Shown here one piece after another: positions 51,461 to 59,558 of a stretch of 64,000 nt of DNA. The stretch lies in IMG/VR virus record IMGVR_UViG_3300034073_002120; one strand, written 5' to 3'. Below the pieces are notes generated by a model. That model was not told the DNA's origin. It saw nothing but the letters and a program-made list of their open reading frames with translations, and made no database searches. Each line of letters starts with the position of its first letter. The first letter of the stretch is position 1. Origin of the DNA: a virus (lineage: Duplodnaviria; Caudoviricetes). Made by a program: the position numbers and the translations under genes.

Positions 51461-51514
51461 TTTGAAAATATTTGTTTACTTCATATAAATATATCTTCGT
51501 TAGATTTTGAATTC

Positions 51515-56890: not shown

Positions 56891-56921
56891 AATAAAAAAG
56901 GGAAAACTTTCGCTTTCCCTT
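56891..56921 (-). terminator. intrinsic terminator
   Basis: AAGGGAAAGC-GAAA-GTTTTCCCTT followed by TTTTATT. Confidence 0.85.
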
Positions 56922-56947
56922 AGTGAATACCTTGTGATTATATTTGT

Positions 56948-57715
56948 TTAGAATTTAGTTCCGCAATGTGGACAGAACTTATGTGTATCTTTTTTTCTTT
57001 TAGCACCACACTCGCCACAATATAGAATACCTAACTCTTCTTTGTGATATTGTTTATGTGATGTGGGTAAAATTCTCCACGCAACATTATGAAATGAATA
57101 CGAATGGAAAGTTCTATCCGATGATGTAAATTGTTGATTAGATGTATCACCTTTTTCAGTTGTACCGGTTTCTATCTTATTACTTCTAAGATTCGGACCT
57201 GAAAATGTATTTGATGTTAAACTTGCGTTGTTGTAATATGAGGTAGGGGTAGTTCCACTAATTCCTAATGTATTGGTAGTATATGTTGCACCACCTAACC
57301 AATTTCCACTACTACTCGTAGTGATTGTACCATATCCACCATAGAAATGATTGGTAGTATTCTCATTAAAGAATTGTATTTCAACATATCCATTATTATC
57401 AATAGCACCTAAATTAACTGCCTCTTTTCCTACTTCATAGGTTCTGAATACAAATTTGTTATTTGAATCCAAGAAACGTTCTAAAAACACTCTCTCACCT
57501 GGTCTTAATACAATACCACCACCCGATAAGTAATCTTTATCGATTTTGATTTTTGCTAAGATGTGTTTTGGAGTTGGGTTGAATAATTCGATTTGGTATT
57601 CATCTCCATCATTAAGATAGACTTGACCATCGAATTGTTTGATTCTTTGTTTACCTTTTGTGATAAACGCTTGCGGGTTTGACGGACTTCCGCTAGTCCA
57701 GATTGATTGTTTCAT
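56948..57715 (-). CDS. hypothetical beta-rich protein with C-terminal zinc ribbon
   Basis: YQIELFNP...VLRPGERVFLERF; C-terminal CGECG...FCPHCG. Confidence 0.75.
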   Translation of the reverse strand: MKQSIWTSGSPSNPQAFITKGKQRIKQFDGQVYLNDGDEYQIELFNPTPKHILAKIKIDKDYLSGGGIVLRPGERVFLERFLDSNNKFVFRTYEVGKEAVNLGAIDNNGYVEIQFFNENTTNHFYGGYGTITTSSSGNWLGGATYTTNTLGISGTTPTSYYNNASLTSNTFSGPNLRSNKIETGTTEKGDTSNQQFTSSDRTFHSYSFHNVAWRILPTSHKQYHKEELGILYCGECGAKRKKDTHKFCPHCGTKF

Positions 57716-57741
57716 TTTTTTCCTTTGTTTATTTGTTATTT

Positions 57742-57812
57742 AAAACTTCATTCGTTGGTATTTCTCCAACTCAACTGCCTCAAAGGACAGTGAAGGTTTA
57801 ACCACAAGGTTT
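57742..57812 (-). ncRNA. candidate structured 5' leader RNA (three-way junction)
   Basis: P1 CTTCA/TGAAG enclosing P2 CTGTC/GGCAG and P3 GTTGG/CCAAC, preceded by hairpin AACC/GGTT; lies between a TACTTATA motif and the ATG at 57715. Confidence 0.45.
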
Positions 57813-57827
57813 CGAATATAAGTATTA

Positions 57828-59558
57828 CTATTTAATTTTTTTCTTAACGATATAATTTCCTAATACTAATGTATCCATTTCACAATCTAAAAAAGTTTCA
57901 ATTGCATCCTTTGGTGAATTTACAATTGTTTTATCTTTTAAATTGAATGATGTGTTTAGGACAATCGGGTATCCATTATCTCTTTCTAATTGATTTAATA
58001 ATGAATACATTCTTTTATGTTGTCTATTATTTAAGGTTTGAATTCTTGCAGAACCATCTACGTGAGTAATTGCCGGTAAATTATCTATATGTTCTGAATT
58101 TACTTTTACCACTTGATTCATATAGGGAACTAATAGTTTGTAATCAAAATATTTTAATCTATCCTCTTCTTTTACGATTGGAGCAAATGGTCTAAACCCT
58201 TCTCTTTTTTTGATTACTCTATTTACCCTACTTTTCATTTGAGGGTCTCTTGGGTTAGCAAGTATAGAACGATTACCGAGTGCTCGAGAACCAAATTCCA
58301 TTCTACCTTCGTACCAACCAATAACATTTCCATCTGTAATTTCCTTAGAAATAATTGGAATAAGTTCGGAGTGATTTTTGTATTCATACCATACATCGTT
58401 TGATTGTTTATCTAATTCTTCTTTAATTTCATCATTTGAATGCCATGGGCCTAAGTATGGATTCGTATTATCAACTCTACCAGCATTTTCAGTATGAGTA
58501 TAATAATATTCTAAAGCACATCCAATTGCAGAACCGGCATCAGATGGTGCAGGTGGAATCCATAATTGTTTATATGGAGATTCTTTTGTTATTTTTCCGT
58601 TTGCAGTTCCATTATATGCACACCCACCACTTAAACACAAACTATATGATGGATTAGTTGCAAACATTTTATTTATTAAACGGAAAAAGAAATATTCATA
58701 TTGTGATTGAATTGTTGCTGCTAAATCCTTATGATGTTGTTCTATCTTATCTTCTGGTAATCGATTTGGAATACCTAATAATAATCCTAATTTTTCATTA
58801 AACATAGAATTGTTTGAATAATCATATGTGAAATAATCCATATTGATTTCAAACCCACCATCTTCGGTTTCTTTAATAAGTTCTTTAAAATGTTTTGTAT
58901 AAACGTTCGGATTACCATATGGTGCAAGACCCATTACCTTATACTCACCCTCATTTGGTTTAAATCCTAAGAATGCAGTAAATGCAGAATAAATCATTCC
59001 CAACGAATGTGGAAATTTAATATTCTGAATTTTTGTGATTTTATTATTTTCTGCAAATGCTAAAACTGTGGTTTCCCATTCCCCAACACCATCTACTGAA
59101 ATGATTGCTGAACGGTCAAATGGAGATGTGTAATAAGAATACGCAATGTGAGATAAATGATGGTCTCCGTATGATAAAATTATTTTATCGTTTGTGATTT
59201 CATAAATCTTACGTTCCGTTTCTTTATATTTTTGTTTATTTTCTTTTAGAATAGCATTACGTTTGAAGTATTGTAATAACCCACCTCTCTTAGTGGTTTC
59301 TTCGATGCGTTCTAACTTTGTTGTTGGGTTTTCATAAAACGAAACTACCGATACATCCGCACCGGTAATTTTGAATTCGTTATATAACCAATTTATTGCA
59401 TTAGTGGGAAAAGAAGAATCATGTTTAATTCCCGTAAATCTTTCTTCTTCTACTGCTCCTAAAACTTTTCCATCTTTTAATAAACATGCTGCAGAATCAT
59501 GATATCCACATGCTATTCCTAAAATATATTTATTCTTCATCATAATCTTCATCACCAC
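57828..59558 (-). CDS. carbamoyltransferase (NodU/CmcH/TobZ family)
   Basis: GYHDSAACL, EEERF..KH, HHLSH, DGVGE, GEYKVMGLAPYG, SGGCAYN, PAPSDAG, EFGSRALGNRS, FRPFAP, HVDGSARIQT, LNTSFN; true start probably near 59540. Confidence 0.95.
   Translation of the reverse strand: MVMKIMMKNKYILGIACGYHDSAACLLKDGKVLGAVEEERFTGIKHDSSFPTNAINWLYNEFKITGADVSVVSFYENPTTKLERIEETTKRGGLLQYFKRNAILKENKQKYKETERKIYEITNDKIILSYGDHHLSHIAYSYYTSPFDRSAIISVDGVGEWETTVLAFAENNKITKIQNIKFPHSLGMIYSAFTAFLGFKPNEGEYKVMGLAPYGNPNVYTKHFKELIKETEDGGFEINMDYFTYDYSNNSMFNEKLGLLLGIPNRLPEDKIEQHHKDLAATIQSQYEYFFFRLINKMFATNPSYSLCLSGGCAYNGTANGKITKESPYKQLWIPPAPSDAGSAIGCALEYYYTHTENAGRVDNTNPYLGPWHSNDEIKEELDKQSNDVWYEYKNHSELIPIISKEITDGNVIGWYEGRMEFGSRALGNRSILANPRDPQMKSRVNRVIKKREGFRPFAPIVKEEDRLKYFDYKLLVPYMNQVVKVNSEHIDNLPAITHVDGSARIQTLNNRQHKRMYSLLNQLERDNGYPIVLNTSFNLKDKTIVNSPKDAIETFLDCEMDTLVLGNYIVKKKIK

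What the first reader, a model, noticed from the sequence alone, without database searches (positions are those of the whole stretch)
57716..57827. Compact three-way-junction RNA in the leader of a zinc-ribbon gene
Seen on minus: TACTTATA, a hairpin AACC-TTGT-GGTT, then AAACCTTCA-CTGTC-CTTTGA-GGCAG-TTGA-GTTGG-AGAAATA-CCAAC-GAA-TGAAGTTTT, ending about 25 nt before the ATG. It is clearly more GC-rich than other spacers. The gene is a stand-alone unit with its own strong terminator. The TGA-stem-GAA junction is hammerhead-like but lacks the CUGANGA core, and I could not match it to a riboswitch I know. Inference: an undescribed cis-regulatory RNA (ligand- or protein-binding, possibly autoregulated).
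Basis: partly seen in the sequence, partly recalled or inferred. Interest (0 to 1): 0.6.

Follow-up and report, generated by a model that had tools for sequence, protein, structure and literature searches.

The report
Y-shaped leader RNA of end-paired phage mRNA
The spacer holds a real, evolutionarily conserved Y-shaped (three-way-junction) RNA at the start of one jumbo-phage message whose first bases also pair with the bases just after its stop codon; no such RNA family has been described, and what it controls is still inferred.

Summary
In 50 distinct relatives, 15 of its 21 base pairs change on both sides while staying paired. P2 and P3 are paired in 100% of cells. A second set, collected by an RNA pattern alone, agrees.

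The junction bases are invariant: U, G, A before P3 and A after it. The element occurs once per jumbo-phage genome. It always lies 4-25 nt upstream of the same 255-aa Ig-like/zinc-ribbon gene. It recurs before 33-45%-identical homologues in megaphages, including weak matches in Lak phages. Rfam 15 has no match.

One correction: the small first hairpin shows no covariation. Those bases are one strand of a 12-16 bp helix with the 3' UTR, just before the terminator. That helix covaries, and two megaphage lineages replace it wholesale.

There is no riboswitch-type expression platform and no hammerhead core. My best reading, at about 45%, is a gene-specific protein-recognition and stability module of a closed, end-paired late mRNA. 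Function is untested.

This scan had already noted the same module on other genomes' DNA.

The parts
57814..57824 (-). A/T-rich promoter-like box (TACTTATATTC) directly upstream of the element; probable late promoter, which puts the transcript start at or near G57813
   Evidence: The same type of box (TATATTTATA-like) lies 23-36 nt before the ATGs of several large structural genes in the window. It is kept upstream of the element in relatives whose upstream gene differs. The transcription start has not been mapped.
57800..57813 (-).
   Evidence: Pairs with 56939-56925 over 14 bp, with one bulge and one G-U. Base-pair probability is 0.97-1.0 for the 11 central pairs and 0.76-0.81 for the three outermost, in a fold of the whole 929-nt mRNA. 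The flanks covary with the 3' box. The local hairpin shows no covariation.
57740..57801 (-). Three-way junction, whole element (P1 closes it: 57801-57791 with 57750-57740; there is a conserved mismatch at C57796/U57745)
   Evidence: The covariance model scores 98.6 bits here, and this is the only strong hit in the window. In P1, 8 of 11 pairs have changes on both sides. The mid-helix position is unpaired in 34 of 50 sequences.
57775..57790 (-). P2 hairpin (5 bp, variable 5-7 nt loop)
   Evidence: 100% of cells are paired, and 4 of 5 pairs have changes on both sides.
57771..57774 (-). Junction strand J23, UUGA (consensus U-N-G-A; U, G and A are invariant in 50 sequences)
   Evidence: The 3' GA is also kept in the distant megaphage versions.
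57754..57770 (-). P3 hairpin (GUUGG / CCAAC, A-rich 7-nt loop)
   Evidence: 100% of cells are paired, and 3 of 5 pairs have compensatory variants (G-C to A-U, U-A to A-U).
57751..57753 (-). Junction strand J31, GAA (G 37 / A 13; the second A is invariant; the third is A in 48 of 50)
   Evidence: Together with J23 it can extend P3 by tandem sheared G-A/A-G pairs. That extension is an inference.
57716..57739 (-). Unpaired A-rich spacer with an AAGGA box (57725-57721) 5 nt before the ATG
   Evidence: Only 12 of 52 ORFs in the window have any SD-like tetramer, so the box is unusual for this genome.
56948..57715 (-). ORF of 255 aa: N-terminal Ig-like beta-sandwich, low-complexity linker, C-terminal zinc ribbon; function unknown
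   Evidence: Only weak zinc-ribbon matches in Pfam and no PHROG family. 1349 homologues, all 'hypothetical'. The structure model and fold search show only a generic beta-sandwich.
56925..56939 (-). 3' UTR box (AAUCACAAGGUAUUC), the 3' strand of the long-range helix; it starts 8 nt after the stop codon
   Evidence: An ACAAGG core is present between stop codon and terminator in all 50 relatives.
56892..56921 (-). Intrinsic terminator (10-bp stem, GAAA loop, T run)

Best explanation
Shown: the spacer encodes a conserved three-way-junction RNA that forms the body of the roughly 100-nt 5' UTR of a single-gene phage mRNA.
- P1 closes the junction.
- P2 follows P1 with no linker.
- P3 is flanked by the invariant strands U-N-G-A and R-A-A.
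- The 12-16 nt immediately 5' of P1 pair with a box in the 3' UTR, between the stop codon and the terminator, so the message is closed end to end.
- The start region lies in an unpaired A-rich spacer 24 nt beyond P1.

Inferred mechanism (about 45%): the module acts in cis, after transcription. The end-to-end helix and the stacked P1 bury the 5' end, and so protect or mark the complete message. The invariant junction with P3, probably extended by tandem sheared G-A pairs, is a recognition platform for a protein. The simplest candidate is the gene's own basic zinc-ribbon product. Bound next to the start region, it would tune translation or decay (autogenous control).

I put the structure and its link to this gene at about 97%. 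A cis post-transcriptional role of some kind I put at about 80%. The protein-platform version is the part I put at 45%.
For: Structure:
- 94.6% of cells are paired, 15 of 21 pairs are compensatory, and all controls are low.
- An independent set collected by RNA pattern gives 93.2% paired and 12 of 21 compensatory.
- The minimum-energy fold of the isolated element is the junction in the window and in 8 of 10 representative relatives; a ninth keeps it with a shortened P2.

Gene-specificity:
- One copy in each of four 288-324 kb genomes.
- 78 of 78 loci with upstream DNA carry it.
- 45 of 45 testable motif-first hits have the homologue 4-25 nt downstream on the same strand. None of the 32 pattern matches without a full junction has the gene.

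Depth:
- The junction is found at the same place before 33-45%-identical homologues in megaphages: LR756501 at 32 bits (E = 4e-6), LR756504 (E = 3e-3) and LR756500 (E = 5e-3).
- It is seen by minimum-energy fold in LR756502, and as weak matches (E about 1) in LR756508 and in Lak phages.

Invariant junction bases are shown.

End pairing:
-.
- Each 5' end pairs better with its own 3' box than with other lineages' boxes: -18.6 against -15.4 kcal/mol, 0 of 2000 permutations.
- Base-pair probability is 0.97-1.0 over the 11 central pairs in the full mRNA.
- LR756502 and LR756500 have entirely different complementary sequences at the same positions, at -20.4 and -20.5 kcal/mol.
- G-U pairs, which work only on the sense strand, point to RNA rather than DNA.

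Other late-type genes in the window have short, unstructured leaders.
Against: - No binding, stability or translation data exist.
- The protein has no recognised RNA-binding fold apart from a zinc ribbon.
- The LR756502 homologue has lost the zinc ribbon yet keeps the junction and the end pairing. That weakens the idea that the ribbon is the binder.
- End pairing was not detected in LR756504 or the Lak phages.
- The transcript start is inferred from a promoter-like box only. One RNA-library contig from a relative runs through it.
- In the full-length thermodynamic fold of the window's own sequence, P1 is replaced by a 3-bp extension of P2. P1 therefore rests on covariation and on the fold of the isolated element.
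Confidence: 0.45

Rival explanations
1. Passive stabiliser. The junction and the end helix act only as structure. They hide the 5' end and block 5'-end-dependent nucleases or exonucleases, with no dedicated binding partner.
For: The 5'-terminal bases are paired. A 14-bp 5'/3'-UTR helix in B. subtilis hbs mRNA modulates RNase Y cleavage (PMC5737220, abstract). The helices vary freely as long as pairing is kept.
Against: A simple 5' hairpin would be enough for this job. Invariant junction bases and a near-invariant P3 over deep divergence suggest specific recognition or a specific 3D fold. Only this gene carries the element.
Confidence: 0.25
2. Completeness licence, a switch. The first bases pair with the AAGG start region on the nascent chain and move to the stronger 3' box only once the message is complete, which frees the start region.
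For: CCUU in the 5' strand is complementary to the AAGG box. AAGG is unusual in a genome where only 12 of 52 ORFs have an SD-like tetramer. The core of the 5' strand is invariant while its flanks covary. In LR756500 the 5' strand, the 3' box and the pre-ATG box change in parallel (UCUC / GAGA).
Against: The 5'-to-start-region duplex is weak. Its mean is -6.5 kcal/mol, against -5.5 for random ORF windows, and on average 32% of ORF windows pair at least as well. In this window it is -4.4, and 64% of ORF windows pair at least as well. No such complementarity is seen in LR756502 (hand comparison of its leader) or in the other distant lineages.
Confidence: 0.1
3. Metabolite- or ion-sensing riboswitch.
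For: It is a compact junction with invariant unpaired bases in a 5' UTR.
Against: There is no terminator/antiterminator or start-site-sequestering platform between the junction and the ATG. The motif is never found before any other gene. The loops are variable, and only about 6 unpaired bases are invariant. No Rfam riboswitch matches.
Confidence: 0.05
4. A stable small RNA derived from the 5' UTR, or an RNA handle for localisation or packaging, which acts apart from the coding part.
For: A compact, stable fold at the 5' end. RNA-library contigs of relatives cover the leader and the first part of the ORF. That is weak: they are contigs and could be DNA carry-over.
Against: There is no terminator or processing signal between the junction and the ORF. 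RNA-library contigs bridge the junction and the ORF.
Confidence: 0.06
5. Self-cleaving ribozyme (hammerhead-like or a new class).
For: N-G-A, stem, R-A-A equals the stem II / tandem G-A half of the hammerhead core (sequence; the comparison is from my own knowledge).
Against: The CUGA turn and the cleavage-site strand are absent: there is no linker between P1 and P2. The 'G12' position is A in 13 of 50 sequences. No hammerhead or other ribozyme family matches even at E <= 10.
Confidence: 0.03
6. DNA-level element: inverted repeats of a mobile gene cassette, or an operator.
For: The promoter-to-terminator unit sits in different neighbourhoods in different phages. The two helix strands form an inverted repeat that brackets the gene.
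Against: G-U pairs dominate one position (42 of 50), and U-G variants occur. On the other strand these would be mismatches. The P1-P3 helices also use G-U freely.
Confidence: 0.02

Closest known systems
B. subtilis hbs mRNA 5'/3'-UTR long-range interaction (Braun, Durand and Condon 2017, PMC5737220)
   Same: A roughly 14-bp helix joins the 5' UTR and the 3' UTR of a short monocistronic bacterial-type mRNA with a structured leader. In hbs it modulates RNase cleavage, which links it to mRNA stability (abstract).
   Different: There is no sequence or structural homology. Here the helix involves the extreme 5' bases and abuts a conserved three-way junction. The RNases involved and any effect on stability are unknown. 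The host appears to be an SD-poor type.
Type I toxin mRNAs hok (plasmid R1) and H. pylori aapA3: 5'-3' long-distance interaction (PMC6733600)
   Same: The ends of the full-length message pair, the folding is conserved by covariation, and the final fold depends on completing the transcript.
   Different: In those mRNAs the interaction sequesters the ribosome-binding signal, so the mRNA is inert until its 3' end is processed. Here the start region is not in the helix. The product is a 255-aa soluble-looking protein, not a small membrane toxin. I did not look for an antisense RNA.
Hammerhead ribozyme, stem II with its tandem G-A core half
   Same: N-G-A, helix, G/A-A-A around P3 has the same sequence logic as positions 7-9 / stem II / 12-14 of the hammerhead (my own knowledge; sequence).
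   Different: It lacks the C-U-G-A turn, the cleavage-site strand and the invariant G12. No covariance-model match. It is a shared building block, not membership.
Autogenously regulated leaders (ribosomal-protein leaders such as S15's; phage T4 gene 32 and regA operators; the unnamed GP20/GP32 leader candidates of Fremin et al. 2023, PMC10690425)
   Same: A structured 5' UTR motif that travels with a single gene family and has conserved unpaired bases, as expected for a site bound by the gene's own product.
   Different: No homology, and binding is untested. The protein family is uncharacterised. The added 5'-3' closure is not a feature of those leaders.
MS2 maturation-gene 5' UTR cloverleaf
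   Same: A phage mRNA leader that folds into a multi-helix junction. PMC6733600 mentions it as a highly stable leader structure. That folding kinetics gate translation there is from my own knowledge.
   Different: In MS2 the start site is sequestered by the fold. Here it is left open, and the virus has a DNA genome with its own promoter and terminator.

Membership tests
Any Rfam 15 family | Covariance-model score at or above the family's gathering threshold | tested here: not met
   0 hits in the 64-kb window. Only noise at E <= 10 in a 500-nt scan; the two matches that overlap the 5' edge of the spacer are snoRNA models at E about 7. Nothing at the element in 8 relatives' loci.
Hammerhead ribozyme | C-U-G-A-N-G-A strand between stems I and II | tested here: not met
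   The strand is only U-N-G-A (4 nt), and there is no linker between P1 and P2.
Hammerhead ribozyme | Invariant G-A-A after stem II, and a cleavage-site strand (N-U-H) at the third junction strand | tested here: not met
   The first base is A in 13 of 50 sequences. The third junction strand has zero nucleotides.
Riboswitch (as a kind) | An expression platform: alternative pairing that hides the start site or forms a terminator | tested here: not met
   A 24-nt unpaired A-rich spacer lies between P1 and the ATG. No terminator lies between the element and the ORF.
Riboswitch (as a kind) | Specific ligand binding | not testable with these tools
   Needs in-line probing or ITC.
mRNAs with a 5'/3'-UTR long-range helix (hbs type) | A helix of at least 12 bp between the 5' UTR and the 3' UTR, supported by covariation | tested here: met
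   14 bp in the window. Compensatory changes in the flanks. The whole helix is replaced in two megaphage lineages.
mRNAs with a 5'/3'-UTR long-range helix (hbs type) | The helix changes nuclease cleavage or mRNA half-life | not testable with these tools
   Needs rifampicin-chase or RNase-mutant experiments.
hok / aapA type I toxin mRNA | The end pairing sequesters the translation start signal | tested here: not met
   The helix ends about 75 nt before the AAGGA box. The 5'-to-start-region duplex is no better than background.
hok / aapA type I toxin mRNA | A small hydrophobic toxin ORF with a cis-antisense RNA | tested here: not met
   The ORF is 255 aa, a beta-sandwich plus a zinc ribbon. I did not look for an antisense RNA.
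Autogenous protein-binding leader | The motif is restricted to the mRNA of one protein family | tested here: met
   One copy per genome. 78 of 78 and 45 of 45 co-occurrence.
Autogenous protein-binding leader | The gene product binds the leader and represses it | not testable with these tools
   Needs EMSA or filter binding, and reporter assays with the protein supplied in trans.

The most novel reading that the evidence does not exclude
The junction and the end-to-end helix may form a new class of closed-loop control element for bacterial-type mRNAs. In this reading, a dedicated RNA platform is read by a phage protein or by a particular ribosome state. One example would be ribosomes able to use the rare AAGG box in a host that otherwise ignores Shine-Dalgarno signals. 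That reading would decide when a conserved jumbo/megaphage protein is made. The element would be neither a riboswitch nor any known leader type.
Probability: 0.25. Interest if true: 0.85.

Novelty: new variant of a known kind. Interest (0 to 1): 0.68.

Why it matters
Structured RNAs of huge phages are almost unexplored. This one is widespread. Its protein family has more than 1300 members in public metagenomes, from freshwater and groundwater jumbo phages to gut Lak megaphages. It is deeply conserved, tied to a single uncharacterised gene, and combined with a rare feature for bacterial-type messages: pairing of the two mRNA ends.

It gives a compact (about 62-nt), well-defined RNA with clear compensatory mutants to test. 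It also gives a handle on the function of an orphan protein family, and on how phages of SD-poor hosts control translation and mRNA life-time. If the junction binds a protein tightly, it could also serve as an orthogonal RNA tag.

Tried and rejected
- **Known RNA families:** Rfam scans of the window, the region and relatives gave nothing at the element.
- **First hairpin:** the local hairpin has no covariation, so I rejected it in favour of the long-range helix.
- **Pairing of the 5' bases with the start region:** it is no stronger than with random ORF windows, so I kept it only as a minor rival.
- **Extra tertiary or pseudoknot pairs:** a mutual-information scan of leader plus 3' UTR returned only the known helices and clade signals.
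- **Model search with default filters:** it missed the distant megaphage copies. With filters off it found them.
- **End pairing in LR756504, LR756501, LR756508 and Lak phages:** nothing convincing.
- **Protein function:** Pfam gave only weak zinc-ribbon matches, and PHROGs nothing. The structure model (mean pLDDT 54) matched only generic Ig-like or MSP-like beta-sandwiches. The protein atlas returned only 'hypothetical' viral clusters.
- **Where else the gene occurs:** no DNA match in INPHARED phages and no copy in 185,579 representative prokaryote genomes.
- **RNA libraries:** four freshwater metatranscriptome assemblies hold short contigs of relatives over the gene and leader. One contig runs on into the upstream gene. 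Contigs cannot show starts, ends or strand, and DNA carry-over is possible, so this gives no support either way for the transcript boundaries.
- **Earlier catalogue:** the supplementary tables of Fremin et al. 2023 (10,006 unnamed candidate viral RNAs from IMG/VR) are not held. I could not check whether this motif is among them.
- **Complex prediction:** I did not run a protein-complex job, because the tool does not model RNA.

Full report
**Setting**

The window is an A/T-rich (about 31% G+C) stretch of a large phage genome with every long ORF on the minus strand. The finding is the 112-nt spacer between two genes. Upstream is a carbamoyltransferase gene (57828-59558). Downstream is a 255-aa ORF (56948-57715) with a C-terminal zinc ribbon.

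Close relatives of that ORF lie on IMG/VR contigs of up to 334 kb. Four of these are 95-100% complete genomes of 288-324 kb. More distant homologues (33-45% identity) lie in Lak megaphages and in the 460-735 kb 'huge phage' assemblies LR7565xx. DNA runs that hold the stretch come from groundwater and freshwater metagenomes. No representative prokaryote genome carries the gene.

**Observation**

Taken alone, the sequence folds only slightly better than shuffles (z = -1.77), so a single-sequence argument would be weak.

The comparative evidence is strong. I collected 50 distinct leaders, from homologues that are 42-98% identical in protein. On these, the three-way junction has:
- 94.6% of cells paired, against 80.8% in column shuffles and at most 46% when partners are slid by 1-3 columns;
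- 15 of 21 pairs with changes on both sides;
- P2 and P3 paired in every sequence.

A second set was gathered without using the gene, by scanning IMG/VR for the P3/junction pattern and keeping full model hits. It gives the same picture: 93.2% paired and 12 of 21 compensatory. The top mutual-information pairs are the helix pairs. The minimum-energy fold of the isolated element is the junction in the window and in 8 of 10 representative relatives; a ninth keeps it with a shortened P2.

At the nucleotide level the element is about as conserved as the best-conserved part of the coding sequence (77% against 73% identity to the window). Its substitutions are concentrated in compensated helix positions.

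**Anatomy**

- P1 has 11 pairs, with a mid-helix position that is unpaired in 34 of 50 sequences (C-U or G-G).
- P2 follows P1 with no linker.
- The strand between P2 and P3 is U-N-G-A, with U, G and A invariant.
- P3 is almost always GUUGG/CCAAC, and its variants are compensated.
- The strand between P3 and P1 is R-A-A, with the middle A invariant.

I infer that G-A of one strand and R-A of the other extend P3 by tandem sheared pairs. The other half of the hammerhead core, the cleavage-site strand and the invariant G are absent, and no ribozyme model matches.

**Correction to the first hairpin**

The small hairpin at the 5' edge (AACC-UUGU-GGUU) has no compensatory change, and its breaks are uncompensated.

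I checked this here. The 14 nt at 57813-57800 pair with 56939-56925. That box starts 8 nt after the stop codon and ends just before the terminator at 56921-56898.

Evidence for this helix:
- All 50 relatives have the 3' box at the same place, and the flanks of the invariant core covary with the 5' strand. Examples are G-C to U-A, A-U to G-C, G-U to A-U, and a U-G wobble.
- Each 5' end pairs better with its own 3' box than with those of other lineages: -18.6 against -15.4 kcal/mol, 0 of 2000 permutations.
- In a fold of the whole 929-nt putative mRNA, the helix forms with probability 0.97-1.0 over its 11 central pairs, despite 860 nt of separation.
- In megaphage LR756502 the same two positions carry a completely different, perfectly complementary 14-mer. 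LR756500 carries yet another, which there overlaps P1 by 7 nt.
- The frequent G-U pairs mean the selection acts on the sense-strand RNA, not on DNA.

I did not find the helix in LR756504 or in the Lak phages.

**Association with the gene**

- The model hits once in the window (98.6 bits; the next hit is 12.6 bits).
- It hits once in each of four near-complete genomes.
- It hits once in each of the 78 loci that include upstream DNA.
- In the motif-first scan, 45 of 45 testable junctions have the homologue 4-25 nt downstream on the same strand. None of the 32 pattern matches without a full junction has the gene.
- With filters off, the model also finds the junction directly upstream of the distant homologues in LR756501 (32 bits), LR756504 and LR756500. 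Weak matches lie at the right spot in LR756508 and the Lak phages. LR756502 shows it as its minimum-energy fold.

The junction is therefore older than most of the protein's sequence similarity.

**Transcription context**

A TATATTTATA-like box precedes several large structural genes by 23-36 nt. Those genes have short, unstructured leaders. A variant of the box lies directly upstream of 57813 and is kept in relatives whose upstream gene differs. This suggests a late-type promoter and a transcript that starts at the first base of the long-range helix, but the start is not mapped.

Metatranscriptome assemblies hold short contigs of relatives over the leader and ORF. They cannot define ends, and one contig runs through the box.

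**Mechanism**

A ligand riboswitch is unlikely. There is no expression platform, the start region lies in an unpaired A-rich spacer, and the motif never precedes another gene.

Earlier agents of this scan proposed a 'completeness licence', in which the 5' bases alternate between the AAGG start box and the 3' box. It has some hints in its favour. AAGG is unusual in a genome where only 12 of 52 ORFs have an SD-like tetramer, and LR756500 shows a parallel change. However, the duplex with the start region is no more stable than with random ORF windows. I rate this low.

What remains is a cis-acting post-transcriptional module. The end helix stacked on P1 buries the 5' end. The closest described analogue is the hbs 5'/3'-UTR helix, which modulates RNase Y cleavage (PMC5737220). 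The invariant junction with P3 looks like a recognition site. Because the RNA and the gene are inseparable over deep divergence, the simplest partner is the gene's own product. I commit to that at about 45%. A purely structural stabiliser is the main rival, at about 25%.

One caution: the LR756502 homologue has swapped its zinc ribbon for a helical tail yet keeps the RNA. If the protein binds, the conserved beta-sandwich or the ETGR-EKG segment may be what matters.

**Novelty**

No Rfam family matches, and no paper found in two full-text searches describes it. A 2023 catalogue of 10,006 unnamed candidate viral RNAs from IMG/VR may include it, but its tables are not held.

The same module was noted before by this scan on other genomes' DNA. 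Those notes agree on the junction and the end pairing. I did not count them as evidence.

Noticed in passing
window, minus strand; boxes start at 51493, 44440, 39429 (39431), 37468, 29312 and 20946: A shared TATATTTATA-like box lies 23-36 nt upstream of the ATGs of several large, presumably structural, genes that have short leaders. It is probably the phage's late promoter.
   Followed up: partly
window 57664-57688 (-), codons 10-17 of the ORF: In the window's clade, the best partner of the 5' strand inside the ORF lies at +27 to +33 from the ATG (-13.3 kcal/mol; the codons for SNPQAF). It could be a transient alternative pairing or a by-product of codon conservation.
   Followed up: partly
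window, all 52 long ORFs: Only 12 of 52 starts have any SD-like tetramer within 22 nt, close to my own rough chance estimate (about 6-7). The host is probably of an SD-independent (Bacteroidota-like) type. The AAGGA box before the zinc-ribbon gene therefore stands out.
   Followed up: partly
L024:1482-2394 and L025:1413-2229 (Lak-B4, Lak-C1): The Lak homologues carry an in-frame TAG near the N-terminus, which fits the stop-codon recoding reported for Lak phages.
   Followed up: no
L028:1483-2544 (LR756502): This homologue lacks the C-terminal zinc ribbon and ends in a helical, SHOCT-like tail. It still has the junction and a perfect 14-bp 5'-3' helix.
   Followed up: partly
L022:1383-1458 (LR756500): Here the 5' strand of the long-range helix overlaps the 5' strand of P1 by 7 nt, so the two helices would partly exclude each other. 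In the window the overlap is only 2 nt.
   Followed up: no
window 57630-57877: One contig from a freshwater RNA library (a relative, 9 differences) runs from the ORF through the leader and the promoter-like box into the end of the carbamoyltransferase gene. This is either read-through transcription or DNA carry-over.
   Followed up: no
window 57828-59558 (-): An intact NodU/CmcH-type carbamoyltransferase (both Pfam halves, E about 1e-65) lies directly upstream. It is the neighbour in only some relatives.
   Followed up: no
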